Below, piece by piece: positions 11,901 to 56,566 of a stretch of 64,000 nucleotides of DNA. The translations under genes were made by a program, and so were the position numbers. The stretch covers positions 16,173 to 80,172 of the forward strand of contig MHTK01000005.1 of NCBI GenBank assembly GCA_001824825.1. The letters run 5' to 3'. The notes below the pieces were generated by a model. It was not told where the DNA came from. It did no database searches and saw only the letters and a program-made list of their open reading frames with translations. The DNA comes from Candidatus Vogelbacteria bacterium RIFOXYD1_FULL_46_19. GTDB lineage: Bacteria; Patescibacteriota; Minisyncoccia; Phycocordibacterales; XYD1-FULL-46-19. How positions within the stretch are numbered: the first letter of the stretch is position 1; the number at the start of each line of letters is the position of its first letter.

Positions 11901-12278
11901 GGGGATGATCGGCCTTGCCATTGATATGTTAGTTTATTCGTGCGTCCCGAGGGTGCTGGTCGCCTCGTAAATCACACCGGCAAAACTTAAGTGCAAAAAA
12001 CAGCACTGGTGCGGTGGTTTCACCGTACTCTCCAGCTTTCGCTTTAGCGTAATAAGCTGGTGTCGGACGAGCTTTTTCCTAACTGGCTCGCTCCCGGCAT
12101 AATAACCGTTGGGATAGGCAACTGGACTTGTTTCGCCCAGACGCCGAAACTTAGAAACTTTAACGCTTTGGGATTTTGCTCGTTTTATACCTAAAGCGTC
12201 GAGAACTTAAAACCAGCTACGGATGTAGACTCGCTTAAACCATATCTCTGCACGGGGGTTCGATTCCCCCCATCTCCA
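11901..12278 (+). ncRNA. ssrA: tmRNA (ssrA), standard one-piece; CCA not encoded
   Basis: The 5' acceptor GGGGAUG pairs with the 3' CAUCUCC, followed by discriminator A. The T-arm is GGGGG UUCGAUU CCCCC. An internal tag reading frame GCA AAA AAC … GCU UUA GCG UAA UAA (11993-12055) gives the tag AKNSTGAVVSPYSPAFALA with a double stop. The gene sits immediately downstream of smpB and is about 378 nt long. Confidence 0.85.
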
Positions 12279-12285
12279 CAATTAC

Positions 12286-12319: not shown

Positions 12320-12321
12320 GT

Positions 12322-12560
12322 TTGTGGAGATGAGCAAAGCGCCTGCGCGCTTTGCGTGGGGGAATCGAAAAGGCTGAACATATCGCAGTGAGCCGAGCAC
12401 CAGAGAAGGCATTGGTGCTTGGCGAAACGAGATGTGAAGCCTGTACCGTTCATGTAATGAAAGATTCCCCGGCCGTGGGGGAATCGAAAGACCCCGCCCT
12501 GTGCACAGGGCGGGATTGGGGTAGAGAGATTACCATTGTCTCTACAAACAAAATGCCCTT
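12322..12560. other. Structured non-coding region downstream of ssrA containing two inverted (mirror) copies of the tmRNA 3' end
   Basis: 12324-12370 reads gtggagatg + [agcaaagcgcctgcgcgctttgcgt hairpin] + gggggaatcgaa. This equals the reverse complement of the tmRNA 3' end, gggggttcgattccccccatctccac, with a 23-nt perfect hairpin inserted at the T-stem/acceptor junction. A second copy, gtgggggaatcgaaa, is at 12475-12489. Further hairpins are cgccctgtgcacagggcg and gtagaga…tctctac. Confidence 0.6.
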
Positions 12561-24032: not shown

Positions 24033-24105
24033 GCGCGTGTAGCTCAGTTGGTAGAGCGCGGAGCTTATACCTCCGTGGTCCCAGGTTCGAGTCCTGGCAC
24101 GCGCA
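24033..24105 (+). tRNA. tRNA with anticodon UAU (reads AUA; Ile); CCA not encoded
   Basis: Cloverleaf: acceptor GCGCGUG/CACGCGC, D-arm GCUC-AGUUGGUA-GAGC, anticodon stem CGGAG/CUCCG with loop CUUAUAC (U33, A37), T-arm CCAGG-UUCGAGU-CCUGG, discriminator A. Confidence 0.8.
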
Positions 24106-24115
24106 CAAAATCTTA

Positions 24116-24150
24116 AGTCCTGAAGTGAAAGCTTCAGGACTTTTGATTTT
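24116..24150 (+). terminator. Intrinsic terminator after tRNA (agtcctgaag tgaaag cttcaggact tttgatttt)
   Basis: A perfect 10-bp stem followed by a U-tract. Confidence 0.65.
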
Positions 24151-24520
24151 GTAGCAGCGTGAGGGACTCGAAAGCCGGAGCCGGTATACAAGATTTTGAG
24201 GTAACGAAAAATGCTTGTCGGCGAGGCGGGGTAGCGACCTTCGTAGCGGAGATTTATCGAAGCAGAAGAGTTGTGACCGAGTCCTGGCACGCGCACCTGA
24301 ACAAAGTGAGGGTGAGAGTGTAGCAAGCCAACTGCTTGGCTTGCGTCAGGACTCGAAAGACTTTTCGTTACCGAGTATCTGATAAAGATAATCGGTCGAA
24401 AAGTACCCGCCCCCGTTGGGGGAGAGTCTTTACCTACGCGCACCCGAACAAAGTGAGGTAAGAGTGCCGCGCATCTTTGTGTTGTCATAGGTGTGATTAT
24501 GCGCACCAGAAAAAATATTC
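24151..24520. repeat. ~370-nt non-coding block composed of direct and inverted copies of the tRNA(UAU) 3' half
   Basis: A direct copy cgagtcctggcacgcgcac (24278-24296) is a 19/19 match to the tRNA at 24087-24105. A partial direct copy acgcgcacc is at 24436-24444. Mirror (reverse-complement) copies gcgtgagggactcgaaag (24157-24174) and gcgtcaggactcgaaag (24343-24359) are present. The block has internal degenerate tandem structure (cgcgcacc[t/c]gaacaaagtgagg[g/t][t/a]gagagtg occurs twice). The antisense 185-aa ORF here is judged spurious. Confidence 0.6.
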
Positions 24521-27923: not shown

Positions 27924-29549
27924 ATGAATAATAAACTTTCTCAAGTACAAAAAGCTTCACTGGCAACAGTTTTGGCTACCGTGGTGGCAACTTTATTAGT
28001 GCTTTCAGCTTCGGGCTGGGCTTTAAGTCGTCCGAGTTCGATCTTGGTAGTCTTCGACAGTTTTCATCAGTTATTGGCCCAAGTCAGTTCTATTGGTCAA
28101 TGTAAGTTAGCTAAACCACAGGTTCAAGTTATTCCTGGTTCTCAAACAGTGGCTCCTGGTGGAACAGTTGAATACACTCTCACTTTAACCAACAAAAATA
28201 ATAATGGGTGTGACCCCGCGACTTTTAAAATCGAGCCGTGGCTAAATCCTTTGTTTGGTCTTAAGGCCAGTCCAGCTTCTTTCACGGAGACTTTGGAGTC
28301 TGGAGCTAAAATTTCTCGGACTTTTAATCTAATGGTGCCAGACTGGTCACTGGAAGTTCCTATTATTTTCAATCAGCGGGCTTACAATATTGGCCGGCCG
28401 GTTGATTGGACCAGCGCCAACGCTCGGCTGACGGTTAAGGGTAAGCCTCTGGTGACTGGTTGTGTTTATCGGCCACCACTTCTGACGCTCACCCCTTTCA
28501 CTCAGACCAGCGCCGCGGGTGATACGGTTACTTATACTTACTCTTTAACGAATAATAATGACTTAAGCTGTGGTGAGACGGAATTTACCTTAAGACCGTG
28601 GGTGCCAGCGGATAGTAATTTGACGATTAATTCTTTTGCTGTCTCGGTGGCTGGCGGCACTACCGCTTCCGGTGAATTTGCAGTCAATTCTATTGCGGCC
28701 ACAACTTCCAACTCCTACCGCTTTAATATGGGGGCTTATTTTACAGCTACCTCCACTAGTGGCCTTCTTACTTACCGTGGCTTACAAGATGCTATTTATG
28801 AAGTTACCCCAACTATAGATGAAGCCACAACTACCGCTACTACGACGATTAGTTCCCCCTTGACCAATTGGGGGATTGAGTGTTTTGACCATAAAGATTA
28901 CGACGGGGACGGACTAGCCGGTTTTGATGATCCAGATTGTTTTGGTCCAAACTTGCGGCAAACTGATACCGACTATGGCTACACTTGGTTCGAACCGTCC
29001 CCCGCCAGCCGAATTATTTACGTGTCTAATTCCAGCGGGGATGACAGTTTTGACGGCTTGACACCGGAGCCGGTTCTTGGCACTAATCAGGGACCAAAAA
29101 AAACTATTTTAGCTGGCTACAATTTATTGCGTCCAGCCTCGGCGGACTGGCTCCTCCTCAAGCGGGGTGATACTTTTGTGGAGCCGGATATTTGGTTTAT
29201 AACTTCTGGACGTTTACCGACCGAACGAATTTTGGTGGCCAGCTATGGTCGTTCGATTCAACGGCCGATTTTAATCAACACCCGCTTCAGTCTTTTCCAG
29301 ACTCGTAATTTGGCTTTTGCCGGCTTAAACTTCTTTTCCACTGAAACTGACTTAGGTGTGCCCCAGATCGGAGCTATGGTTCCAGCTAAGGGCGGAATAA
29401 CTATTTGGGAAAGGGACACCCAGTCTAATAATATTTTGATTGAAAATAATATTTTTCATTTTGATCAGACTAATATTCTAAATAATACTACTCTGTGGAA
29501 AAATATTGTTCTTCGCCTGAACGTGTTTCGTCGACCGGTTAACTTTTAG
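27924..29549 (+). CDS. Secreted/membrane-anchored protein: 2× Ig-like 'NNN..CDPATF.I.PW' repeat domains + truncated right-handed beta-helix (pectate-lyase-fold) start
   Basis: An N-terminal TM anchor precedes repeats TLTNKNNNGCDPATFKIEPWLNPLFGL and SLTNNNDLSCGETEFTLRPWVPADS, which are shared with the two downstream paralogs. The C-terminus IYVSNSSGDDSFDGLTP…KTI…LLKRGDTF… is the canonical N-cap of pectin-lyase-fold beta-helix proteins. The ORF ends after about 3 rungs, so it may be truncated. Confidence 0.6.
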   Translation: MNNKLSQVQKASLATVLATVVATLLVLSASGWALSRPSSILVVFDSFHQLLAQVSSIGQCKLAKPQVQVIPGSQTVAPGGTVEYTLTLTNKNNNGCDPATFKIEPWLNPLFGLKASPASFTETLESGAKISRTFNLMVPDWSLEVPIIFNQRAYNIGRPVDWTSANARLTVKGKPLVTGCVYRPPLLTLTPFTQTSAAGDTVTYTYSLTNNNDLSCGETEFTLRPWVPADSNLTINSFAVSVAGGTTASGEFAVNSIAATTSNSYRFNMGAYFTATSTSGLLTYRGLQDAIYEVTPTIDEATTTATTTISSPLTNWGIECFDHKDYDGDGLAGFDDPDCFGPNLRQTDTDYGYTWFEPSPASRIIYVSNSSGDDSFDGLTPEPVLGTNQGPKKTILAGYNLLRPASADWLLLKRGDTFVEPDIWFITSGRLPTERILVASYGRSIQRPILINTRFSLFQTRNLAFAGLNFFSTETDLGVPQIGAMVPAKGGITIWERDTQSNNILIENNIFHFDQTNILNNTTLWKNIVLRLNVFRRPVNF

Positions 29550-29713
29550 TCGGAGGGATAAATAAGCAAGTTTTGAATCGGGAGATGGTATTGACCGATT
29601 TTATCACTAAGACCTGTTGATGACTTGGTGGCTAAGTGTTGATATATCCTTTATGATTAGCTGAAGCTAAGCTTTAGGCCTGGAGTTAATTTTTTAATAA
29701 TATTTCCGTAAAT

Positions 29714-32700
29714 ATGAAAAATTTAGATTTTGTTCGCAGTGCTTTTATTATAGTGGTTGGAGTGCTTTTGGTAGCGTTTTCCACTTGGTATCTGATGGAA
29801 AGAACGGAAATTTTGTCTGGGCCGCAGGCTCTCGTGGAGCGGTTGGTGGCACAAGTTAGCGGCTTAGGCAGTTGTGAACTTAAAAATCCAACCGTCAGCA
29901 TTACCCCCAGGCGGCAAGAGGGGGCGCCGGGCGAAAGATTAAAGTTTTCATTTACAGTTCGGAATAATAATCTTAACTGCGATCCGGCGACCTTTGATAT
30001 TAGACCCTGGCTTGATCCTCGTTATGGGTTATCAGCTGAGCCGCGTCTTCACGTTGAAACTTTAGCCGATGGAACATCGGTCACTCGTGACTTCATCATG
30101 ATTTCTCCCGCGACAGCCGAGGCTCGAGAAATAGTTTTTAACCAGAAGGCTGTTAATGTAAGCAGTGCTCGTCATTGGGGCAGTGCCGATGCTCGTTATG
30201 TGGTGATGGTGGAAGAAGTGGAGACTTGTGTGCGGCGTCACCCTTCGATATCGGTTCGACCGGCGACTAAAGCTGGTTTACCGGGTCAAATTGTTAATTA
30301 CCTATTTACCGTCACCAATAACAATAGTTCGGTTTGTGGGGAGTCTGATTTTCAGATTAAACCATATTTTTTTACCGACAGTGTTCTAAGTTCAGCTTCG
30401 ACTCCGATTATGACTATGAAAATAGCGGCCGGTGGACAAGTCTCAAAGACTTATTCGGTTAAATCTTCAGCCACGGCCAGTTTAGGTGATAGTGTACGGT
30501 TCAACCTCGGGGCTTATTCAAGCTTTGAAGGGGTTAACTATCGTCACAGCCAAGATCTATTTTATGTGGTGGGCACCAGTACCGTGCCGGTGTCAGCCCC
30601 ACCTGTGCCGGTTGAACCAGTTGAGCCGGTACCTTTACCAGAGCCACCATTAACTGAAGGTGAACCGATTAGCCTGGCTCTGATTACTATTGCAGCGGAC
30701 TCTTTAGTGAATAATGTTTATCGACTGGGAGTAAATATTGGTTACACAGCCAGTGCTGATACCTCTGTTCACTTCCGTAAAAATATAGTTAGGAACCCTG
30801 GTTTTGAAGTCTCTACTTTGCGTAGTAATTACGTCCTACATCATTTCCGAACCAAGGATGGTAATGGCAAATTGATTGGTGAAGGATCAATTCAAGCTAA
30901 TCAAGCGCAAGAGTTTTGCTGGAATACTGATTGGAGCAATAATGGCAACTTAGGGCAGCCGATCGGCACCTGGAATGACGCCGACTACGAAATAATGTCT
31001 GGCCCCCTTAAGGGTATAAAAGGGGTGGTGCAGGATTTCACTTATGAGGCTGATGCCTCCGGGGCTCCTCATTACACCTTTACCCTGGATAAAAATTTGC
31101 CCCGTCGCCCGGGTAATACTGATACGATCTTGACGGTGCGAAAAACTTTCGACGATTTTGATTCGACAGAAAAACGCCCTGGTAGCCCCGGTCAAAGGTC
31201 GCTACGACTGGAGCCGGAAACTGGGCCGGGAAAAACCACTCTTCTTAATCAATTATATGATGATGGCTCTTCAACTGTGGTTGAAGATGGTTACTCTGGC
31301 AAAAAAATGATTGTCGAGGGTCGGTGGCGCTTGTCCTTCTGGGCTAAGGCGGCTACTCCTGGTGATAAAGTATTTATTAGTTTTGTGCGACCGGGAACTC
31401 CCGGGTTCTTAAGTGAAGTAGTAACCTTGGATAAAGCCGGTTGGCAGGAATATGATATTCCGTTTACAGTGCCGGTGGGAACCGATGCTCGTCATACGAA
31501 CGCGGCTCCGCCAGTTGGTTTAAAAATTTCTTCTGTCCCGGACCAATATGACCGAGTTTATAAAGATTATCGTAATCGGAGCCAGATTTGGATCGACGAC
31601 GTTTATTTAGGGGAAGCCGATAATACCAACCCGACCGTTTTTAGCGATCAAGCGGTCGCAATGTTGAAAGAGTTGAATCCGGGAGTCTTGCGTTACTGGG
31701 GTGGTAACTTGGGTGAGCCCCTCGTCAATGTTCTGGGTTCGGAGTGGGGCCGAGGGATGTCACGATTTGCAACTCGGGCTAAAACGGGAAATGAATATTT
31801 CTCTTCACTTCCGGAAGTCTTGGATTTAGCCAAAGAAATTGACGCTGATCCGTGGTACGTAGTGCCGCCAACTTTGACTAAAGAGGAGTTAAAAGATTTG
31901 ACCACTTATGTTAACTCTCGAGCTGGCGAGTTTAATCGAATTTACTTAGAGTATGGTAATGAGATGTGGGGCACAGGGTGCGGATCCGATCCTTTTATGG
32001 GGGCCACGGTCGGTTTTCATTTGCCGAAGATGGCGGATGAGGCGTTTGAAGTGATGCGTGACGCGGGGTTGTCATCTAAGGTCAAGCTAATTATTGGTGG
32101 GCAGGCCGCCTGGGTCGGTCGTCAATCTCAAATTGAAGCTAATAGTGATAGTCATGATATAACGGCTATTGCTCCTTACTACACAATGATTGAAGAAGGG
32201 ATTACTAATCGGCCCACTCCAACCGTGGCTAATCTTCTGGATTACATTTATGCTAGCCCTTTGATCCGAAATAAAGCCAATAATAAAACCAACCAGTCTA
32301 GTAAAATTATTTCACAAGCTGGTCGGGAACCGGCTATTTATGAGATAAACTTTCATGATACCGGTAGTTTTCCACCGATTGCTCTAAAGAATAAAATTCT
32401 TACGGGTCAAGCTGGGGGTATTACCCTACCGCTACATATGTTGCACGCGATGAAAGAGAGTGGTATTCGTATTCAAACTGCTTTTTCCTTCTTACAAATT
32501 TACTTCCGAGACACCGGTGGAACTATGACTCGCTTGTGGGGTATTGCCCGGGACTTGGACAATATTCAGGCTTACCGCGGAACTGGTCTGGCTCTCTCGG
32601 TAGCTAACAAGGCGGTGTTTGGTGATTTGATCGGTAGTAACGTAGTTGGCGGCGGTTCGTGGTCTAGAACGATGGTGGATGAGTTTGATCGCAGTAAAAA

Positions 32701-32986
32701 AGCCGACCACGTCATCCCATACCTCCAATCCTTTGCTTTCAAAGATGGTAATCGTTATGGCCTAATCGTTTTCAATGTTCATCAGACGGCCACGATTAAA
32801 TCTAAGCTGGATTTACCGGGTGTCGGAGGAGCCGGGACGCGCTACCAGTTGTATCACCCTGATCCTCTGGCTACCAATGAAAGAAGTGTGAATCTGACGA
32901 TTCAAGAAGTGCCGGTAACTATTGATGAAATTACTGAGTACGAATTCCCACCGCATTCGATTACTAGCTTCACTTGGAGTGAGTAA
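29714..32986 (+). CDS. Large secreted multidomain protein: N-terminal Ig-like repeats + beta-sandwich + C-terminal GH51-like (clan GH-A) glycoside hydrolase domain
   Basis: A signal/TM region at the N-terminus is followed by two CDPATFDIRPW-type repeats. LRYWGGNLGE matches GH51 lRfPGGn. YLEYGNEMWGTGCG matches the GH51 acid/base motif GNE(N/M)WGCGG. AIYEINFHDTG is the nucleophile motif. A C-terminal beta-sandwich follows. The protein is 1090 aa. Confidence 0.65.
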   Translation: MKNLDFVRSAFIIVVGVLLVAFSTWYLMERTEILSGPQALVERLVAQVSGLGSCELKNPTVSITPRRQEGAPGERLKFSFTVRNNNLNCDPATFDIRPWLDPRYGLSAEPRLHVETLADGTSVTRDFIMISPATAEAREIVFNQKAVNVSSARHWGSADARYVVMVEEVETCVRRHPSISVRPATKAGLPGQIVNYLFTVTNNNSSVCGESDFQIKPYFFTDSVLSSASTPIMTMKIAAGGQVSKTYSVKSSATASLGDSVRFNLGAYSSFEGVNYRHSQDLFYVVGTSTVPVSAPPVPVEPVEPVPLPEPPLTEGEPISLALITIAADSLVNNVYRLGVNIGYTASADTSVHFRKNIVRNPGFEVSTLRSNYVLHHFRTKDGNGKLIGEGSIQANQAQEFCWNTDWSNNGNLGQPIGTWNDADYEIMSGPLKGIKGVVQDFTYEADASGAPHYTFTLDKNLPRRPGNTDTILTVRKTFDDFDSTEKRPGSPGQRSLRLEPETGPGKTTLLNQLYDDGSSTVVEDGYSGKKMIVEGRWRLSFWAKAATPGDKVFISFVRPGTPGFLSEVVTLDKAGWQEYDIPFTVPVGTDARHTNAAPPVGLKISSVPDQYDRVYKDYRNRSQIWIDDVYLGEADNTNPTVFSDQAVAMLKELNPGVLRYWGGNLGEPLVNVLGSEWGRGMSRFATRAKTGNEYFSSLPEVLDLAKEIDADPWYVVPPTLTKEELKDLTTYVNSRAGEFNRIYLEYGNEMWGTGCGSDPFMGATVGFHLPKMADEAFEVMRDAGLSSKVKLIIGGQAAWVGRQSQIEANSDSHDITAIAPYYTMIEEGITNRPTPTVANLLDYIYASPLIRNKANNKTNQSSKIISQAGREPAIYEINFHDTGSFPPIALKNKILTGQAGGITLPLHMLHAMKESGIRIQTAFSFLQIYFRDTGGTMTRLWGIARDLDNIQAYRGTGLALSVANKAVFGDLIGSNVVGGGSWSRTMVDEFDRSKKADHVIPYLQSFAFKDGNRYGLIVFNVHQTATIKSKLDLPGVGGAGTRYQLYHPDPLATNERSVNLTIQEVPVTIDEITEYEFPPHSITSFTWSE

Positions 32987-33014
32987 TATAGACTAAAAAT
33001 CCGAGGCTTAAAAA

Positions 33015-33052
33015 TCAACCCCGCCGTAGCAACAGTTACGGCGGGGTTGATT
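33015..33052 (+). terminator. Hairpin terminator-like element after 29714..32986 (tcaaccccgccgta gcaacagt tacggcggggttga)
   Basis: A perfect 14-bp stem with a weak U-tract. Confidence 0.45.
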
Positions 33053-33187
33053 GATATCCTTTATCATCCTAGTCTGTCTGCGGCTGGATAAATTTTGACA
33101 CCAGCTACTCTTTGTGGTTAGTATGAGGGGTAGTGGTCGTTTCGATGACACAGGAGTTGGCTGCTGACTAATCTAATTGTTGAGTTA

Positions 33188-33225
33188 TTGAGGACGTATG
33201 AAAGTGAACTTTCATACGTCCTCAA
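33188..33225. promoter_or_regulatory. Perfect 18-bp inverted repeat (ttgaggacgtatgaaagt gaac tttcatacgtcctcaa) ~95 nt upstream of the third paralog
   Basis: A long perfect palindrome with a 4-nt loop. It is a candidate operator or RNA structure. There is no flanking T-tract. Confidence 0.35.
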
Positions 33226-33315
33226 CTGATAATGACGGACTCAGATCCATATAGGTCCAGGGCTTGACCCTGGGGTTTATACTTTTTACTTGCTTTTTAA
33301 CCAGATTTTAACCCT

Positions 33316-36150
33316 ATGATAATTAATAGCAGAACTGGCCGCATAACCCCTTTTCTCTTGATCGGAGGAACATTTTTAATAGTCTTAGTTGTCGTTGTTG
33401 GTTTGACCCCGACCAGAACTTCCGCCGAAGCTTGCGTGCGGCAAAATCCAACGATTGAGGTGACCCCCTCGGTGCAGTACGGCGAGCCGGGTCGGATTTT
33501 AAATTATTCTTATCGCTTAACCAATAATAATAGCGCTGGTTGTGGTGTTGAAACCTTTGAAATTAAGCCTTACTTTTTGCCGGGCAGTATTGTGGAATCA
33601 GGTTATGGTGAAGCGAAATTGGATCGGGTGGCGCCGGGGGCGACTGATGATGGGCGTTACCAGATTAAGTCGGCCGCCAATGCTCCTCTGGGCACCAAAG
33701 TTAGATTTAATATTGGGGCTTACCTGGTGGCTGATGGGGTGACCTATAAAACTACTAAAGATTTGTTTTACCAAATCGGTACTCCCACCACACCGCTACC
33801 TGGTGAAAACCCTGACCCGGAGCCAGGCCCCGATCCGGAAGTACCTCCTCCAGTACCACCGACCGCGACGGGGACTGTGGTTTCGTTGTTAAACCAGTCC
33901 CTTTTAAACGATGCTTCTAGATTGGGTATAAATATTGGTTATACAGCTGGTTTTGATACGGCGGTTCACTTTCGGAAAAATATTGTTCATAATCCCGGCT
34001 TTGAAGAAGCCACTTTGCGGAGTAACTACACTTTGAAAAATGGCGGGGCCGAGGGTGGTCTGGCGGCCAATCAAGTGCAGGAATTTTGCTGGCAAACGGA
34101 ATGGGGTACTGGTTCGGACGGTAAACACTTCAAGGGGCAAGGCTTGGGCGCTTGGGCCGGCGGCGATTATGAGTTTATTGCAGGGCCGGCATGGTTAAAG
34201 GATGTAAAAGGAAAAGTCACTGCTTTTACTTTTAAAGCCGATAAAAACGGGGCGTCGCGTTATACTTTTACGTTGGATAAAAATTTACCTAAACGACCTG
34301 ATTACTTGAATACGATTTTACAGGTACGTAAAACTTTTGATAACTTTGACCGCAGCCAAAAAAGGCCAGGCAGCCCCGGGGATCGTTCACTTAAGCTGGA
34401 CTCCAACCGGGGGGACGGCGGGGATTATCCTTTTTTGCAGTACTTTGACGACGGGGCTAGAACTAAAGTGGAAGACGGTTACGCCGGTAAAATGTTGGTA
34501 GTGGAGGGACCTTGGCGCTTGTCGGTGTGGGCCAAAGCCGAACAGCCGGGCGATAAGCTGTTTGTTAGCTTTTCCCGCCAAGGTTTGCCAGCCTTCTTGG
34601 ATAAAGAAATTACGCTAACCGATACTAATTGGCGCGAGTATACTTTTAATTTTATGGTGCCGGCTGGCCTCGATGCTCGCAACGTATCGGCCAATATCTT
34701 GGTTCAACCGGTGAGTCTAAAAATTGCCACTCGCACCCATACTTACTCTAAAAACCGCGGTTCGGTTTGGATCGACGACCTTTACTTAGGTGAAGCGGAC
34801 AACACTAATCCCACTGTCTTTAGCGATCAAGCTGTCAAAATGTTGAAAGAATTAAACCCTGGCGTTTTGCGCTACTGGGGTGGTAACTTGGGTGAACCAA
34901 TTGAAAACGTGCTGGGCTCGGAGTGGGAACGGGGGACCTCTAACTTTTCCACCGAAGCCCGCGAAAATAACACTTTATATTTTTCCTCCCTACCCGAAAT
35001 CCTAGATTTAGCCAAAGCCGTAGATGCCGACCCGTGGTACGTGGTACCACCAACTTTAACGACTCAGGAATTAGAAGATTTAACAGATTACGTTAATTTC
35101 CGAGTGGGTGAGTTTGATCGGATTTATTTGGAGTACGGTAATGAGATGTGGGGGACAGGGTGTGACGACCCATTTAAGGGGGCGACTGTTAGTTTTAATC
35201 TACCGACTTTGGCGGATGAAGCCTTTCGAGTAATGAAAGGAGCCGGCCTTTCGAGCAAGGTTAAACTGGTGATCGGGGGGCAAGCCGCTTACGTGGACCG
35301 ACAAAATCAAATTGAACAGGGTAGTGATACTCATAATCTGACGGCTATTGCTCCTTACTACCAAATGAATGGGCGGGCCAACTCAACTGTTGCTTCTTTG
35401 CTCGGCCACTTATACGCCGACCCGCTAGTGCGAAATATTCCGGGTAGTAAAATAAACCAGTCGGCGTCCATTGTAAGAGTGGCTGGTCGGGAACCAGCTA
35501 TTTATGAAATTAACTTTCATGACACTGGCAACCAACCGGCGATTGCCCTAAAAAATAAAATTATCACCGGTCAGGCGGGAGGTATTACTTTACCCCTTCA
35601 GATGTTGCACGCCATGAAGGGGAGTGGTATTCGTGCTCAAACCGCGTTTACTTTTTCCCAGTTTGCTTTCCGTGACACCGGGGGTAATATGACCCGTTTG
35701 TGGGGGGTGGTACGCGATTTAGACAATGGGCGGGCTTTTCGTGGGACAGGTTTAGCTCTGGTGGTAGCCAACAAAGCTATTTTTGGGGATTTGATTAAGG
35801 CAGAAGTTAGTGGCGGCCGAACTTGGGTTCAGAGTTTACCTGACGAGGTTGAAAAAGATCGATCCGCCAACCACACTGTTCCTTATTTGCAGACTTTTGC
35901 TTTTAAAGATGGTAATCGCTATGGGCTCATCGTCTTTAACCTCCATCAAACCGAAACTCTTAAAACTAAACTCGATCTACTGGGTACCGGTGGCTCGGGC
36001 CGTAAGTATTGGCTCTACCACCCTGACCCCCTAGCTAATAACGAAAGGAATATTCAGTTAAGAGTGGAAGAAGCCCCAGTTACTATTAATGAAAGTACTG
36101 AGTATGAATTTCCGCCCCACTCGATTACGAGTTTGGTTTGGAACGAGTAG
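33316..36150 (+). CDS. Paralog of 29714..32986: secreted Ig-like-repeat + GH51-like glycoside hydrolase (944 aa)
   Basis: The C-terminal ~600 aa are about 75% identical to the upstream gene (VWIDDLYLGEADNTNPTVFSDQAVKMLKELNPGVLRYWGGNLGEP…YLEYGNEMWGTGCDDPF…AIYEINFHDTGN…). The N-terminus has one CGVETFEIKPYF repeat and a Pro-rich linker. Confidence 0.65.
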   Translation: MIINSRTGRITPFLLIGGTFLIVLVVVVGLTPTRTSAEACVRQNPTIEVTPSVQYGEPGRILNYSYRLTNNNSAGCGVETFEIKPYFLPGSIVESGYGEAKLDRVAPGATDDGRYQIKSAANAPLGTKVRFNIGAYLVADGVTYKTTKDLFYQIGTPTTPLPGENPDPEPGPDPEVPPPVPPTATGTVVSLLNQSLLNDASRLGINIGYTAGFDTAVHFRKNIVHNPGFEEATLRSNYTLKNGGAEGGLAANQVQEFCWQTEWGTGSDGKHFKGQGLGAWAGGDYEFIAGPAWLKDVKGKVTAFTFKADKNGASRYTFTLDKNLPKRPDYLNTILQVRKTFDNFDRSQKRPGSPGDRSLKLDSNRGDGGDYPFLQYFDDGARTKVEDGYAGKMLVVEGPWRLSVWAKAEQPGDKLFVSFSRQGLPAFLDKEITLTDTNWREYTFNFMVPAGLDARNVSANILVQPVSLKIATRTHTYSKNRGSVWIDDLYLGEADNTNPTVFSDQAVKMLKELNPGVLRYWGGNLGEPIENVLGSEWERGTSNFSTEARENNTLYFSSLPEILDLAKAVDADPWYVVPPTLTTQELEDLTDYVNFRVGEFDRIYLEYGNEMWGTGCDDPFKGATVSFNLPTLADEAFRVMKGAGLSSKVKLVIGGQAAYVDRQNQIEQGSDTHNLTAIAPYYQMNGRANSTVASLLGHLYADPLVRNIPGSKINQSASIVRVAGREPAIYEINFHDTGNQPAIALKNKIITGQAGGITLPLQMLHAMKGSGIRAQTAFTFSQFAFRDTGGNMTRLWGVVRDLDNGRAFRGTGLALVVANKAIFGDLIKAEVSGGRTWVQSLPDEVEKDRSANHTVPYLQTFAFKDGNRYGLIVFNLHQTETLKTKLDLLGTGGSGRKYWLYHPDPLANNERNIQLRVEEAPVTINESTEYEFPPHSITSLVWNE

Positions 36151-36488: not shown

Positions 36489-36662
36489 ATGCCGGTAATT
36501 TCTGTGAAAGACGCCAGGTTGAACCTGGAAGTATTGTATGGTGAGCTCGAGGATGAAGGATCGCCAATTCCCCGTGAGGCTTTGGTGCGCCAAATTGAGG
36601 CGGCTAGAGATCGGGTGAAGCTAGTAGAGCAGTTAGCGACTCCGCAGGAGCTCTGTCAATGA
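36489..36662 (+). CDS. Candidate small protein, 57 aa (MPVISVKDARLNLEVLYGELEDEGSPIPREALVRQIEAARDRVKLVEQLATPQELCQ)
   Basis: AAAGGGG sits 8 nt upstream of the ATG. The protein is acidic and helical. Its size and composition are reminiscent of antitoxin or small regulatory proteins. It is below the ORF-track cutoff. Confidence 0.3.
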   Translation: MPVISVKDARLNLEVLYGELEDEGSPIPREALVRQIEAARDRVKLVEQLATPQELCQ

Positions 36663-36804
36663 AAGTGGATTCGGAATGAAATTTTTCGTTCCCAAGCCGC
36701 CTGAGCAATCAGGCGGTTTTTTGGTTGGTGGGATTCTTTCATTACATGAACAGTATACCTTTGCGATTTTATCCCAGCCAAGCTGCTCGAAAATAACGCA
36801 AAGC

Positions 36805-36877
36805 TTTTCGAATCCCACCCGCGAGGCAAGCAGTTGCCTCGCTACCCTCCGCAGCTTTTTCACTGCGTTCAAAACTG
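36805..36877. other. Mirror copy of tRNA-Ser 3' end with 24-nt hairpin insertion, plus long palindrome overlapping tRNA acceptor end
   Basis: On the + strand, ttcgaatcccaccc + [gcgaggcaagcagttgcctcgcta] + ccctccg. This is an inverted duplicate of the tRNA-Ser 3' end (GGGTTCGAATCCCACACCCTCCG, minus strand) with a perfect hairpin inserted at the T-stem/acceptor junction. The palindrome ccctccgcag-c-tttt…aaaa-ctgcggaggg pairs the acceptor 3' strand with a downstream mimic. Confidence 0.55.
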
Positions 36878-36966
36878 CGGAGGGTGTGGGATTCGAACCC
36901 ACGAGGGGTTTTAAAGCCCCTACCTCGTTAGCAGTGAGGCGCTTTCGGCCACTCAGCCAACCCTCC
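36878..36966 (-). tRNA. tRNA-Ser (anticodon GCU), long variable arm; CCA not encoded
   Basis: Revcomp: GGAGGGT-UG-GCUG-AGUGGCCGAAAGC-GCCUCA-CUGCUAA-CGAGG + variable arm UAGGGGCUUUAAAACCCCUCG + T-arm GUGGG-UUCGAAU-CCCAC + ACCCUCC + G. Confidence 0.85.
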
Positions 36967-36990
36967 AATTACTGCTTGATACTAGCAATT

Positions 36991-38223
36991 TTAAACCCTT
37001 TTTTCAATCAGTTTATATTTCCGATTGATTTGTTTTAAAAAGATTAAACTGATAACCAACAGAATGGTTAAAAAGAATAACCCGGTCTGATAACCACGGA
37101 CACCCTCACCAGCCGTAATTAGAGCTAGGCTCCAAATACCTGGACCAATAAAAGTGGCGAATCGTTCAGCGATAACATAATAACTATAAGATGAGGCAAC
37201 AAGGTTGGTTGGAGCTAGTTGCCCGACTAAAGACCGACTGATACCCCAAACTGGGCCAAAAAGGAGTCCAGCTACCAAGAAAACCGGAATAAGAAAATAA
37301 AAATTAGTAATGAGGGCCATGGCCGGGAAAATTACACACCAGGCAATAATGATCCAAGTTAAAATCTTTACTTCCCCTTTTTTATCAGCCAGGCGACCAA
37401 AGATAACAGCGCCAATGGCGGCTAACACTAGAATCATGGCGGTTAGAAGGGATTTAATCGTATCTGATACACCATGAATGGTCTCTAAATACAAAGGGAA
37501 GTTATTGGCAAAAGTTATTAAGGTATCACTAAAAAGGAAGTAGGCAATTAGCATGAAGGCGAGAGGACGGTAAGACCAGATGATCTTAAGTAGATTCAAA
37601 GAGTTTGGCGGCAGATTATTTTTGGGTGGAGTTAAAAAAGTATTTTCTCGATAAAAAATTAAAATTGGTAAAGAAAATAAAGAAAATAAAATAATAGCTG
37701 GTAAAAGAGCTTGGGCCCGACCCGGTTCGCCTAAAAGAGTGAGGCCATTAACAAATGGTAGAGTTACTAAGACACCGGTTACTTGCCCGATCGAGTTAGC
37801 GCCCTGCCCCAAACCGGAGATCCACGACCGGTTACTCGAGCGTGACAGGTCGTTTAACATTGGGGTGAAATATAGAAAGCACATTAAATAGGCATACATC
37901 GCCAAAGTGTAAAAGGTGGTAGTCAAAAGTTCGAAACCACTTACCAGAACTGTCATCAAGGCGGTAGCAGTGAAACCAATAAAAGACATGATCGTCCACC
38001 ACCGCAATCCTTTAATTTTTTTACCCGTTTGGTCGATGAGATGACTGGCTTTGGGGGCAGTAATTAGAAATAACACCGAAGAGATAATGAGGGAAAAGTT
38101 GTACCACCAGGCGGGCTGGCCGCGGTCGATAACTAGCCACTGGGAAAAATAAAACAAAAAAGCCATTAGAACAATCGAGTTGGCAAAATCGTATAGAGAC
38201 CAATAAATTATTTTTTTAACCAT
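36991..38223 (-). CDS. MFS-type transporter
   Basis: A 410-aa protein with about 12 TM segments in two 6-TM halves. The sequence is MFS-like throughout. Confidence 0.65.
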   Translation of the reverse strand: MVKKIIYWSLYDFANSIVLMAFLFYFSQWLVIDRGQPAWWYNFSLIISSVLFLITAPKASHLIDQTGKKIKGLRWWTIMSFIGFTATALMTVLVSGFELLTTTFYTLAMYAYLMCFLYFTPMLNDLSRSSNRSWISGLGQGANSIGQVTGVLVTLPFVNGLTLLGEPGRAQALLPAIILFSLFSLPILIFYRENTFLTPPKNNLPPNSLNLLKIIWSYRPLAFMLIAYFLFSDTLITFANNFPLYLETIHGVSDTIKSLLTAMILVLAAIGAVIFGRLADKKGEVKILTWIIIAWCVIFPAMALITNFYFLIPVFLVAGLLFGPVWGISRSLVGQLAPTNLVASSYSYYVIAERFATFIGPGIWSLALITAGEGVRGYQTGLFFLTILLVISLIFLKQINRKYKLIEKRV

Positions 38224-56459: not shown

Positions 56460-56465
56460 GCAAAT

Positions 56466-56488
56466 AAAGCCCCTGCTGGGGCTTTTTG
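56466..56488 (+). terminator. Intrinsic terminator after tRNA cluster (aaagcccc tgct ggggcttttt)
   Basis: A stem followed by a U-tract. Confidence 0.6.
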
Positions 56489-56566
56489 CTTGGCGGTCGG
56501 AAAAACTGGACTGCTCCAATTTTTGATAGTATAACCAACCGCCGGCCCTTGAGGGCTGGTGGTTGG

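What the first reader, a model, noticed from the sequence alone, without database searches (positions are those of the whole stretch)
36805..36966. Third instance of the 'mirror 3' end + hairpin insertion' motif, at tRNA-Ser
Downstream of minus-strand tRNA-Ser(GCU), the + strand reads ttcgaatcccaccc + 24-nt perfect hairpin (gcgaggcaa gcag ttgcctcgc) + ccctccg. This is the tRNA's own T-loop/T-stem/acceptor 3' strand in inverted orientation. The hairpin is inserted at the same T-stem/acceptor junction as at ssrA.

In addition, a 14-bp palindrome (ccctccgcag…ctgcggaggg) pairs the acceptor 3' strand with a downstream 5'-strand mimic. The same design in two unrelated sequences, each tailored to its own gene, argues against chance. 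It points to a copy-and-insert mechanism or to selection on the 3' trailer structure.
Basis: seen in the sequence. Interest (0 to 1): 0.6.

Follow-up and report, generated by a model that had tools for sequence, protein, structure and literature searches.

The report
Structured module tailored to tRNA ends
The mirror copy of the tRNA-Ser 3' end is real and belongs to a widespread, apparently undescribed ~150-nt structured module that follows tRNA and tmRNA genes in Patescibacteria (CPR), each copy complementary to its own tRNA's 3' end; it is most likely a small non-autonomous insertion element, but an RNA function is not excluded.

Summary
Downstream of tRNA-Ser(GCT), a perfect 11-nt complement of the acceptor 3' strand plus trailer and a perfect 12-nt complement of T-loop/T-stem flank a 9-bp hairpin. 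No shuffle of 5000 reached this.

It is the left part of a larger unit (36725-36877, minus strand): loop L, mirror, hairpin HP1, mirror, TCGAAAAG, long hairpin P2, GTATAC, hairpin HP3, then a direct repeat of the tRNA T-loop/T-stem.

A covariance model finds exactly three copies in the window (Ser, ssrA, Ile). It finds 84 in 63 CPR loci, and 56 of 93 tRNA/tmRNA genes there carry one. All helices covary. The mirror matches each neighbouring tRNA. No Rfam family, viral contig, paper or neighbouring recombinase matches.

The stems are almost purely Watson-Crick, unlike the tRNA stems beside them. Copies occur in tandem and nested, differ between close relatives, and are flanked by repeats running from the T-loop to the discriminator.

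I favour a non-autonomous insertion module whose folded strand rebuilds the tRNA gene's 3' end as a duplex (confidence 0.4). A cis-encoded RNA is the main rival (0.28). Mechanism and trans-acting enzyme are unknown.

The parts
36878..36966 (-). tRNA-Ser(GCT). T54-C65 is at 36886-36897, acceptor 3' strand + discriminator at 36878-36885. CCA is not encoded (trailer CAG at 36875-36877).
   Evidence: ARAGORN; Rfam RF00005 54.9 bits; sequence
36855..36874 (-). Loop L (TTTTGAACGCAGTGAAAAAG): apical part of the palindrome, holding a mini-hairpin ACGCAGT (GCA triloop) flanked by GA..GA. In the ssrA and Ile copies, and in many other loci, this place is taken by a terminator hairpin.
36844..36854 (-). 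Mirror A (t2'): CTGCGGAGGGT, perfect complement of ACCCTCCG+CAG (acceptor 3' strand, discriminator, 3 trailer nt).
   Evidence: (I1)
36820..36843 (-). HP1: A-GC GAGGCAA CTGC TTGCCTC GC-G. A 9-bp hairpin with conserved flanks and loop and covarying stem, placed at the T-stem/acceptor junction of the mirror.
   Evidence: I8; 7 of 9 pairs with changes on both sides, 98.9% paired
36807..36819 (-). Mirror T (t1'): G-GTGGGATTCGAA, perfect complement of TTCGAATCCCAC (T54-C65).
   Evidence: I3; 37 of 40 family members have 11-13 nt contiguous complement to their own tRNA
36759..36806 (-). AAAG linker + P2 long hairpin (CTTTGCG TT ATTTTC ... GATAAAAT CGCAAAG), type-1a inner domain.
   Evidence: I2; helices 3 and 4
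36737..36758 (-). Conserved GTATACT + HP3 (GTTCA TGTAA TGAAA). The 17-mer GTTCATGTAATGAAAGA is identical at the ssrA copy.
   Evidence: 2 matches, expected 0.15; helix 5 (90.9% paired, 5 of 6 pairs covary)
36727..36736 (-). DR2: GAATCCCACC, direct repeat of tRNA G57-C65 (t1 only; the acceptor part is not repeated here). It is also complementary to mirror T.
   Evidence: D4, I5
36725..36855 (-). Whole covariance-model match of the module at tRNA-Ser (121.1 bits, E 3.5e-30).
12321..12474 (+). Sister copy downstream of ssrA (tmRNA 11901-12279): mirror GTGGAGATG / HP1 AAAGCGC-CTGC-GCGCTTT / mirror TGGGGGAATCGAA, type-1b P2, same HP3, DR2 GATTCCCC.
   Evidence: 106.5 bits
24310..24435 (+). Sister copy (unit 2) downstream of tRNA-Ile(TAT) (24033-24106). 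It is preceded by a type-2 unit (24107-24278) and a perfect 18-nt repeat of the tRNA 3' end (24279-24296). It was not in the model's seed.
   Evidence: 69.6 bits

Best explanation
The mirror and hairpin are the left part of a ~150-nt non-coding, non-autonomous insertion module. Modules of this family occupy the 3' end of tRNA and tmRNA genes in Patescibacteria.

Layout (shown): tRNA 3' end (T-loop to discriminator) | L hairpin | complement of acceptor 3' strand + trailer | HP1 | complement of T-stem/T-loop | AAAG | P2 | GTAYAC | HP3 | direct repeat of the tRNA 3' part.

Inferred: the unit entered the tRNA gene as integrating elements do. The gene's present 3' end and trailer are element-borne, and the distal repeat is the displaced native end.

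Inferred: the element works as a folded single strand, more likely DNA than RNA. The mirror folds back on the tRNA-3'-end sequence. This gives a three-way junction whose main helix is a duplex copy of the target (tRNA gene T54 to N73 and beyond), with HP1 branching where the D and anticodon arms leave a real tRNA. P2 and HP3 complete a scaffold read by an enzyme encoded elsewhere. The principle resembles integron attC or CTX-phage attP, and the guide-next-to-hairpin logic of IS200/IS605.

Not shown: the strand and chemistry (DNA or RNA), the enzyme, and how the mirror becomes matched to a new tRNA.
For: Family and structure:
- 59 of 82 exact-motif hits in species genomes have a perfect or near-perfect 7-bp HP1 stem. 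Nearly all of these are in records titled as Patescibacteria; a few carry uninformative titles and one is titled Burkholderiales (L099). The rest are chance hits in other phyla.
- The model R1 finds 84 copies in 63 loci, and 3 in the window including one not in its seed.
- Helices: 86.6% of cells paired against 64.6% shuffled and 33-46% slid. Covariation score 0.584 against 0.177, reached by 0 of 500 shuffles.

Link to tRNA genes:
- 56 of 93 tRNA/tmRNA genes in those loci have a copy within 120 nt downstream on the same strand.
- Mirror T is an 11-13 nt contiguous complement of its own tRNA in 37 of 40 copies.

Insertion-like behaviour:
- The direct repeat runs from T55-G57 to the discriminator, +0-3 nt.
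- Tandem identical units occur in L034, L101 and L069, and there is an array at the window's Ile gene. Nested units occur in L102, L104 and L110.
- In a relative with 96% identical neighbour protein and an identical tRNA-Ser, similarity stops 3 nt after the tRNA and the model finds nothing.
- L105 and L079 have a perfect repeat of the new tRNA but a mirror fitting another tRNA.
- CCA follows the distal repeat about as often as it follows module-free tRNAs (6 of 37) and more often than tRNAs with a module (2 of 60) (sequences).

DNA-like signature:
- HP1 has 276 Watson-Crick pairs and 0 G-T. HP3 has 168 and 1. In P2, G-T (16) equals A-C (16).
- tRNA stems in the same loci have 4.8% G-T (52 of 1077) and 2 A-C.
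- Folded as DNA, the Ser unit gives exactly the three-way junction: -51.9 kcal/mol, z = -10.
- L is a terminator hairpin between the tRNA and the rest of the module in 21 of the 45 listed copies.

No protein in cis:
- No recurrent neighbour family was found.
- Among 144 ORFs within 2.5 kb, 131 Pfam families matched. None had more than 3 members, and the 25 listed hold no integrase or transposase family.
Against: - No excised form, empty site or enzyme was found. The predicted empty junction for the Ile array is absent from metagenomes.
- Copies within one genome are as divergent as copies between genomes (0.575 vs 0.544). There is thus no sign of recent bursts, yet structure and mirror complementarity are maintained while the distal repeat decays. 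That fits a host or cis function as well as, or better than, a selfish element.
- L palindromes (terminators, an RNA function) are also almost purely Watson-Crick. The lack of G-U is therefore suggestive, not decisive.
- Fixed G-A mismatches and the higher stability of the sense strand (21 vs 7) fit RNA as well as single-stranded DNA.
- Moving to a different tRNA by crossover inside the gene would create a chimeric tRNA. No mechanism for re-tailoring about 23 nt of mirror is demonstrated.
- Patchwise gene conversion between modules (L048/L112, same genome) could produce the 'wrong mirror' cases without any transposition.
Confidence: 0.4

Rival explanations
1. A cis-encoded structured RNA, in one of two forms. 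It could be a 3' trailer or separately released RNA whose antisense segment pairs with the 3' half of its own (pre-)tRNA. Or, paired with the downstream repeat, it could form an acceptor/T-arm minihelix mimic with HP1 in place of the D and anticodon arms. Such an RNA could act in tRNA 3' processing, quality control or regulation, or be handled by RNase P, RNase Z or the CCA-adding enzyme.
For: - The module is always on the tRNA strand, beginning 19-61 nt downstream, in 40 of the 45 copies listed with a nearby upstream tRNA.
- It is present at 60% of tRNAs in the sampled loci, including every tRNA of some clusters such as L053 and L056.
- Inside tRNA operons, L lacks a terminator (L073).
- Structure and mirror complementarity are kept over deep divergence while the repeat decays.
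- HP1 sits at the tRNA-like junction. Conserved unpaired nucleotides and G-A motifs lie on the sense strand.
- In L191, L204 and L182 the mirror and repeat close a minihelix-like stem that includes CCA.
Against: - G-U pairs are virtually absent from HP1 and HP3 (1 in about 450 pairs), against 4.8% in neighbouring tRNA stems.
- A terminator hairpin separates the tRNA from the module in many copies.
- The predicted RNA minimum-energy fold of tRNA-Ser plus module destroys the cloverleaf.
- The mirror pairs better with the upstream tRNA end (at least 8 of 9 in 25 of 67 copies) than with the downstream repeat (12 of 67), and the repeat decays. The minihelix-with-DR2 version is therefore not general.
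- There is no Rfam match.
- Presence varies between close relatives.
Confidence: 0.28
2. A once-mobile module that the host has domesticated as a DNA-level cis element of the tRNA gene. Possible roles are a bidirectional terminator or insulator cluster, or a structure that occupies or masks the tRNA integration site against other integrating elements. Templated correction of the quasi-palindrome would keep the mirror matched to the tRNA.
For: - Stems are purely Watson-Crick, as in the bidirectional L terminators.
- Neighbours are housekeeping genes with no mobility genes.
- Copies are old and divergent yet structurally intact.
- The mirror tracks the selected tRNA arm.
- tRNA-Asp in the window has only terminator + GGCGGTCG, the complement of its acceptor 3' strand.
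Against: - A terminator or insulator does not need HP1, P2 and HP3 with conserved loops, nor complementarity reaching into the T-loop.
- The Ser copy has no T-run after any module hairpin on the tRNA strand.
- There is no evidence on integration immunity.
Confidence: 0.12
3. Ordinary scars of classical integrase-mediated islands or prophages at tRNA genes (attL/attR remnants plus terminators), with no function of their own.
For: - Direct repeats of the tRNA 3' end are present, tmRNA is also a target, and there are tandem arrays.
- Some copies are separated from their tRNA by 2.5-3.5 kb of accessory genes: UDG, NUDIX, DUF5680, SocA/Panacea.
Against: - Random scars would not share four covarying helices, conserved loops and a precise HP3/repeat junction across 84 copies.
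- No integrase is present in or near them.
- The motif is absent from IMG/VR viral contigs.
Confidence: 0.05
4. Chance inverted matches or generic palindrome density downstream of genes.
For: The T-arm is itself nearly palindromic, so short inverted matches to it are common.
Against: - 0 of 5000 shuffles and 0 of 3000 random positions reach 23 nt.
- The model hits only the three tRNA-linked sites in 64 kb.
- The family recurs in dozens of genomes.
Confidence: 0.01

Closest known systems
Integrating elements at tRNA/tmRNA genes (tyrosine-integrase islands and prophages; T-loop sublocation described by Williams 2002, from my own knowledge)
   Same: The targets are tRNA and tmRNA genes. The direct repeat runs from the T-loop to the 3' end of the gene. 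The gene stays intact. Arrays accrete in tandem. Accessory cargo is sometimes present.
   Different: The module is ~150 nt with no integrase in or near it. Its content is a conserved folded scaffold. It carries an inverted copy of the att core split by a hairpin. One scaffold family serves at least 14 different tRNA specificities.
Folded single-strand recombination sites: integron attC and CTX-phage attP(+) (own knowledge; PMC4792948 and PMC3442271 appeared, abstracts only)
   Same: Structure is conserved while stem sequence is free. Unpaired bases are conserved. The enzyme acts in trans. In CTX phage, a hairpin whose stem imitates the duplex target site ends up next to the hybrid site after integration. 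Small co-oriented accessory ORFs lie upstream of the site in some copies.
   Different: There is no GTTRRRY core, no intI or attI platform, and no dif-like site. The target is a tRNA gene. No single-stranded intermediate has been shown.
IS200/IS605 family and derived miniature elements, and REP/BIME with RAYT (own knowledge)
   Same: These are non-autonomous, hairpin-bearing and strand-specific elements. A short 'guide' at the foot of a hairpin base-pairs with the flanking target or cleavage site. REP/BIME have a mosaic modular build.
   Different: The guide here is about 23 nt on both feet of the hairpin, against 4 nt. The insert is flanked by a 17-21 nt repeat, whereas IS200/IS605 make none. 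No Y1 transposase or TnpB was seen in the window's ORF list (not searched by profile).
IS110/IS1111 bridge or seek RNAs (PMC10849738, abstract seen; details from own knowledge)
   Same: A non-coding element carries target-complementary segments on either side of a stem-loop, so targeting is programmable in principle.
   Different: Both mirror segments pair with one continuous strand rather than left and right guides for opposite strands. No IS110 recombinase gene adjoins the module. There is no second (donor) loop. A 17-21 nt repeat replaces a 2-nt core.
tRNA-like structures and minihelices (tmRNA tRNA-like domain, viral TLS, YrlA; own knowledge)
   Same: The mirror plus a tRNA 3' strand gives stacked acceptor and T helices, with one arm leaving at the 7/49-type junction.
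   Different: The T-loop is replaced by base pairing and a large inner domain. ARAGORN and the Rfam tRNA model do not call it. The 3' partner strand (DR2) is often decayed.

Membership tests
Classical integrase-type island at a tRNA gene | Insert flanked by direct repeats of the tRNA gene's 3' part | tested here: met
   Ser: 10 nt (GAATCCCACC, D4). Ile: 18 nt. Family: the full G57-N73 stretch in about half of copies.
Classical integrase-type island at a tRNA gene | Integrase (tyrosine or serine recombinase) encoded in the element next to att | tested here: not met
   The Ser insert is 152 nt with no plausible ORF. No recurrent neighbour family. Cargo ORFs are UDG, NUDIX, DUF5680 and SocA. Among 144 ORFs within 2.5 kb, no family has more than 3 members and none of the listed ones is a recombinase.
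Integron attC | R''/L''-L'/R' imperfect palindrome with GTTRRRY core at the crossover, and an intI/attI platform | tested here: not met
   The junctions read ...HP3|GA(A/T)TCC and N73|CAA, so there is no GTTRRRY. No integrase neighbour.
Integron attC / CTX attP | Recombination as a folded single strand | not testable with these tools
   Only indirect evidence: Watson-Crick-only covarying stems and a DNA fold with z = -10.
IS200/IS605 (incl. miniature derivatives) | No target-site duplication; insertion 3' of a 4-5 nt target | tested here: not met
   The insert is flanked by a 17-21 nt repeat.
IS200/IS605 (incl. miniature derivatives) | Y1 HUH transposase (TnpA) somewhere in the genome | not tested
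   Only 64 kb of the genome is available. The ORF list shows ribosomal, pilus and housekeeping genes, and no profile search of all ORFs was run.
IS110 bridge RNA | Encoded at the end of an IS110 element beside its DEDD recombinase; two loops (target and donor) | tested here: not met
   No adjacent ORF. There is a single mirror/HP1 unit. No recurrent neighbour protein.
Any Rfam 15 RNA family | Score at or above the family's gathering threshold | tested here: not met
   Only tRNA and tmRNA were found in the window. Nothing significant at 36600-37000 up to E = 10. Nothing on the modules of 9 other loci.
Intrinsic terminator | G+C-rich hairpin followed by a T-run on the transcribed strand | tested here: not met
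   For the Ser copy, the only terminator-like site (36694-36719) is on the + strand and serves the convergent ORF. L is a terminator in the ssrA and Ile copies and many others, but that is only one part of the module.
tRNA / tRNA-like gene | Cloverleaf recognised by ARAGORN or the Rfam tRNA model | tested here: not met
   No call on 36725-36877.
The module family defined here (model R1) | Match to the covariance model; position within 120 nt downstream of a same-strand tRNA/tmRNA; mirror complementary to that tRNA | tested here: met
   121.1 bits, E 3.5e-30. The module starts directly after the tRNA. The mirror is 12+11 nt perfect.

The most novel reading that the evidence does not exclude
The module is a nucleic-acid-guided homing element. 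Its mirror, split by HP1, would be a roughly 23-nt programmable guide that pairs with the exposed sense strand of a tRNA gene (T54 to just past the 3' end). A trans-acting enzyme bound to the HP1/P2/HP3 scaffold would then insert the unit there, duplicating or re-supplying the tRNA 3' end. Copies with a perfect repeat but a 'foreign' mirror (L105, L079) would be off-target jumps. This would be a guide-directed insertion system unrelated to CRISPR-associated transposons, IS110 bridge RNAs or TnpB.
Probability: 0.2. Interest if true: 0.9.

Novelty: new variant of a known kind. Interest (0 to 1): 0.75.

Why it matters
If these modules are mobile, they are a very small and abundant class of tRNA-gene-specific insertion elements in the Candidate Phyla Radiation. 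They would work without their own recombinase and carry a built-in complement of their target. That would reveal either a new use of folded single-stranded att sites or a new guide-directed insertion principle. It would also point to an unidentified trans-acting enzyme of possible use in genome engineering.

If they are RNAs, most tRNA genes in several CPR classes carry a dedicated antisense or minihelix partner. That would be an unknown layer of tRNA biology in organisms with minimal genomes.

Either way, 60% of tRNA genes in the sampled loci carry a conserved element that is in no RNA or repeat database I could search. The family is large enough (84 copies in 424 kb) for direct tests.

Tried and rejected
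1. The shared 17-mer GTTCATGTAATGAAAGA in IMG/VR gave 28 hits, all unrelated coding sequence.
2. The HP1 motif in IMG/VR gave 7 hits, none with a hairpin. The module is not seen in viral contigs.
3. Rfam found only tRNA and tmRNA, both at gathering threshold on the window and at E-value threshold on the locus and on 9 other loci. Weak sX4 and plastid-UTR hits lie on the tRNA itself.
4. Contigs carrying the identical MFS protein are identical in the region and so uninformative.
5. Relatives at 60-68% identity have lost synteny with tRNA-Ser.
6. The predicted empty-site junction for the Ile array is absent from metagenomes.
7. The tRNA-Ser 3' 25-mer in metagenomes is shared by many phyla. Most hits are module-free high-GC bacteria, and only 4 loci carry other module types.
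8. I tested whether the P2 tip hairpin mimics the anticodon arm. It does not: the same GAGCTTTGCTC occurs at Lys, Glu and Leu.
9. I tested whether scaffold similarity follows tRNA identity (p = 0.83) or genome (0.575 vs 0.544). It follows neither.
10. A promoter inside the module: only a weak TTGGCT-18-TATACT match. The conserved TRTAC lacks the -11 A in most copies, so this is not pursued.
11. A primer-binding-site-like origin (a complement of mature tRNA, as in retroviruses) is rejected. The mirror matches the genomic trailer (CAG, AA, AAAATC), not CCA, and it extends to T54 rather than stopping at A58.
12. Seven literature searches found no description. One possibly relevant 2026 preprint on coevolutionary mining of non-coding elements could not be opened.
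Full report
**1. The observation**

tRNA-Ser(GCT) lies on the minus strand at 36877/8-36966. Read on the tRNA strand, the gene ends ...GGGTTCGAATCCCAC-ACCCTCC-G and is followed by:
- CAG;
- a 20-nt loop (TTTTGAACGCAGTGAAAAAG);
- CTGCGGAGGGT, the perfect complement of ACCCTCCG+CAG;
- A-GC GAGGCAA CTGC TTGCCTC GC-G, a 9-bp hairpin that I call HP1;
- G-GTGGGATTCGAA, the perfect complement of TTCGAATCCCAC (T54-C65).

The repeat finder gives the same arms (I1, I3, I8). The two complemented stretches are contiguous in the tRNA, so HP1 interrupts the mirror exactly at the T-stem/acceptor junction.

The hairpin is 22 nt, and the palindrome arms are 11 nt perfect or 15 nt at 93%.

The combined 23-nt match was reached in none of 5000 shuffles (maximum 17). 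It was reached at none of 3000 random positions of the window (maximum 21).

**2. The feature is larger than reported**

Aligning the ssrA and Ser downstream regions and reading all eight tRNA-type genes shows a common unit. After the mirror come:
- AAAG;
- a long hairpin P2 (36759-36803);
- GTATACT;
- a short hairpin HP3 with loop TGTAA;
- GA, followed by a direct repeat of the tRNA's T-loop/T-stem 3' side (GAATCCCACC, 36727-36736).

The 17-mer spanning HP3 is identical at ssrA and Ser and occurs nowhere else in the window.

At tRNA-Ile(TAT) there is an array:
- a unit with a different inner domain ('type 2');
- a perfect 18-nt repeat of the tRNA 3' end;
- a type-1 unit;
- a degenerate repeat;
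- a remnant.

The other five tRNAs lack the unit.

**3. A family in Patescibacteria**

I scanned one genome per species for AGC-N7-CTGC-N7-GCG-N7/8-TCGAAAAG. This gave more than 119 stretches.
- Of the 82 matches in the 80 loci read, 59 have a perfect or near-perfect 7-bp stem with very diverse sequences. Nearly all of these are in records titled as Patescibacteria (Saccharibacteria, Paceibacterota, Parcubacteria and others); a few carry uninformative titles ('uncultured bacterium') and one is titled Burkholderiales (L099).
- The other 23 lack a hairpin, lie in other phyla, and number about what chance predicts.
- 40 of the 59 begin 19-61 nt after a same-strand tRNA or tmRNA. Fourteen amino-acid specificities occur across the copies read, plus tmRNA.
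- Most of the remainder are at contig ends.

The anatomy seen in the window recurs throughout. L is either a small hairpin or a full terminator hairpin whose A- and T-runs extend the palindrome. There are at least two inner-domain types.

**4. Structure**

An alignment of 31 type-1 units, scored against HP1, helix T (mirror T with the downstream repeat), P2 and HP3, gave:
- 86.6% of cells paired, against 64.6% in shuffles and 33-46% when the partners are slid;
- 259 cells with changes on both sides, against 84;
- a covariation score of 0.584 against 0.177, reached by 0 of 500 shuffles.

A covariance model built from the alignment finds exactly three sites in the window:
- Ser, 121 bits;
- ssrA, 106.5 bits;
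- the Ile unit, 69.6 bits, which was not in the seed.

It finds 84 sites in 63 CPR loci. 23 of these lack the exact search motif yet keep the same features with covarying first pairs of HP1. They also show TTGAA in place of TCGAA; I did not check the T-loops of their tRNAs.

In those loci, 56 of 93 tRNA/tmRNA genes carry a unit within 120 nt downstream on the same strand. The 'orphans' are contig edges, second units of tandems, nested units, or units separated from their tRNA by cargo.

**5. Known families**

Nothing known matches.
- Rfam gives nothing on the module, in the window or in nine other loci.
- The motif is absent from IMG/VR.
- Seven full-text searches found no description.
- No protein family recurs next to the modules. 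The 144 ORFs within 2.5 kb hit 131 Pfam families. None has more than three members, and the 25 listed are housekeeping.
- The accessory genes that separate some modules from their tRNA are UDG, NUDIX, DUF5680 and a SocA/Panacea antitoxin, not recombinases.

**6. What the mirror is matched to**

Mirror T is a contiguous 11-13 nt complement of the neighbouring tRNA in 37 of 40 units. Mirror A pairs with the upstream tRNA end and trailer (at least 8 of 9 in 25 of 67 units) more often than with the downstream repeat (12 of 67).

Where the tRNA and the downstream repeat differ, the mirror agrees with the tRNA at 94 positions and with the repeat at 2. That total is inflated by indels in decayed repeats. 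However, all clean single-substitution cases go the same way: L034, L058, L069, L083, L099 and the window's ssrA.

So complementarity to the live tRNA 3' end is maintained while the repeat decays.

Two units show the opposite pattern. L105 at tRNA-Trp and L079 at tRNA-Glu(CTC) have a perfect or near-perfect repeat of their tRNA, but a mirror that fits another T-arm.

**7. Insertion-like traits**

- The repeat begins at T55-G57 and ends at the discriminator, +0-3 nt.
- Encoded CCA follows 2 of 60 tRNAs that have a module, against 6 of 37 tRNAs that lack one.
- Several distal repeats are followed by CCA although their tRNA copy is followed by CAG, CAT or CAA: L075, L100, L110 and L217. L067 and L086 also have CCA after the repeat (sequences).
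- The distal repeat therefore looks like the native gene end, and the present 3' end plus trailer looks element-borne, as in integrase-type insertion.
- Tandem identical units (L034, L069, L101) and nested units occur.
- In a close relative (neighbour protein 96% identical, tRNA-Ser identical), similarity ends 3 nt after the tRNA and the model finds nothing.

**8. DNA or RNA?**

Evidence leaning to DNA:
- HP1 has 276 Watson-Crick pairs and no G-T. HP3 has 168 and one. In P2, G-T and A-C are equal (16 each).
- In the same loci, tRNA acceptor and T stems have 52 G-T in 1077 pairs and two A-C.
- As single-stranded DNA, the stretch from T54 to the repeat folds into the expected three-way junction (-51.9 kcal/mol, z = -10).
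- As RNA, the minimum-energy fold of tRNA plus module sacrifices the cloverleaf to the mirror.
- 21 of the 45 listed units have a terminator hairpin between the tRNA and the mirror.
- L and HP3 loops are of the GNA type, and several L hairpins are GCGAAGC. From my own knowledge this is an unusually stable DNA mini-hairpin.

Evidence against reading too much into this:
- L palindromes are also almost purely Watson-Crick.
- Fixed G-A mismatches and a sense-strand stability bias (21 vs 7) fit either nucleic acid.
- In tRNA operons, L has no terminator (L073).

**9. Dynamics**

- Scaffold similarity follows neither tRNA identity (0.557 vs 0.576, p = 0.83) nor genome (0.575 vs 0.544).
- Some same-genome pairs at different tRNAs share long identical patches. 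L039 and L074 share HP1 and P2.
- L048 and L112, from the same MAG, share 100% identity over about 75 nt of inner domain, while their HP1 stem, mirror and repeat all differ.
- The family is therefore old and mosaic. Patchwise exchange is bounded by the T-loop-derived flanks. There are no recent bursts.

**10. Interpretation**

I rank first a non-autonomous insertion module whose folded strand presents the tRNA gene's 3' end as a duplex (confidence 0.4). It combines the insertion geometry of tRNA-integrating elements with the structure-not-sequence logic of attC, CTX attP or IS200/IS605 ends.

The main rival is a cis-encoded RNA (0.28). A domesticated DNA-level element (0.12) would reconcile long-term maintenance with the DNA-like signature. 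Plain integrase scars (0.05) and chance (0.01) are contradicted by the covariation.

The step from 'lands at a tRNA' to 'mirror matches that tRNA' is unexplained. Candidates are templated correction of the quasi-palindrome, selection on a guide, or patchwise conversion. I could test none of them.

**11. Other module types**

The tRNA-Ser 3' 25-mer is shared across phyla, and most metagenomic hits have no module. Four loci (L182, L191, L204, L217) show the same plan with other inner domains and without HP1. The plan is an L hairpin, then a stem formed by a mirror and a repeat of the tRNA end that encloses a structured domain. The design principle may therefore be broader than the HP1-bearing family.

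Noticed in passing
window 12475-12560 (+): Directly after the ssrA module's repeat (GATTCCCC) comes a second mirror, GTGGGGGAATCGAAAG. It is followed by GGGGTAGAGAG...CTCTAC, which looks like a truncated second unit with a type-2-like start.
   Followed up: partly
window 24107-24480 (+): tRNA-Ile(TAT) carries an array. Unit 1 has a 'type 2' inner domain (CCGGAGC...GGGGTAGCGA...GTGACC) and its HP1 is deleted. Then come a perfect 18-nt repeat of the tRNA 3' end, a type-1 unit, a degenerate repeat, and a t2-L-t2' remnant. The type-2 domain recurs in many CPR loci and also has no Rfam match.
   Followed up: partly
window 56461-56520 (+): tRNA-Asp has no module. However, its terminator is followed by GGCGGTCG, the complement of its acceptor 3' strand (model score only 11.8 bits, E 0.19). 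It may be a remnant, or the simplest form of the palindrome.
   Followed up: no
L048 and L112 (both contigs of MAG CAYTUZ01): Two modules at different tRNAs share a 100% identical inner domain of about 75 nt, including the normally variable P2 tip and HP3. Their HP1 stem, mirror and repeat differ. This suggests patchwise gene conversion bounded by the T-loop-derived flanks.
   Followed up: partly
L075, L100, L110, L217, L067, L086 (distal repeats): The distal repeat is followed by CCA, although the tRNA copy (where it is in the locus) is followed by CAG, CAT or CAA. Encoded CCA is found at 2 of 60 tRNAs with a module against 6 of 37 without.
   Followed up: partly
L053, L061, L069, L072, L101, L102, L110 (between GA and the rest of the distal repeat): An optional ~15-nt motif, (T)AAGCGTACTCGCGGT, is inserted inside the repeat just after G57-A58. 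Its meaning is unknown.
   Followed up: no
L153 3060-3339 (close relative of the window organism): Downstream of the identical tRNA-Ser the sequence is unrelated. It contains GGTGGAAGAAGT, then the hairpin CCCGCGCC-GAC-GGCGCGGG, then TGTGGGCAAAAG. This may be a decayed or different module type. The downstream genes also differ, so the tRNA end is a synteny breakpoint.
   Followed up: partly
L182, L191, L204, L217 (metagenome loci with the same tRNA-Ser 3' end): These carry other module types without HP1: an L terminator, then a stem formed by a mirror and a repeat of the tRNA end (with CCA) that encloses different inner domains. L191 (GC 0.66) may lie outside CPR.
   Followed up: partly
window 36979-37007 (-): A promoter-like site (TTGAAA-17-TAGTAT with TG) lies just upstream of tRNA-Ser, so the tRNA probably has its own promoter although it sits 25 nt after the MFS gene.
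   Followed up: no
window 27924-36150 (+): Three large ORFs (541, 1090 and 944 aa) with hydrophobic N-termini lie between the RecG-like gene and the Ser locus. The 541- and 944-aa products share NNN..GC motifs near the N-terminus. The called 944-aa and 1090-aa products carry no precomputed Pfam domains.
   Followed up: no
L154 832-2403: In a 68%-identity relative, the MFS gene is preceded by a large serine recombinase whose 3' end overlaps an antisense tRNA-Tyr, next to a SduA_C (Shedu-type defence) gene. This is an ordinary island at a tRNA with no module.
   Followed up: no
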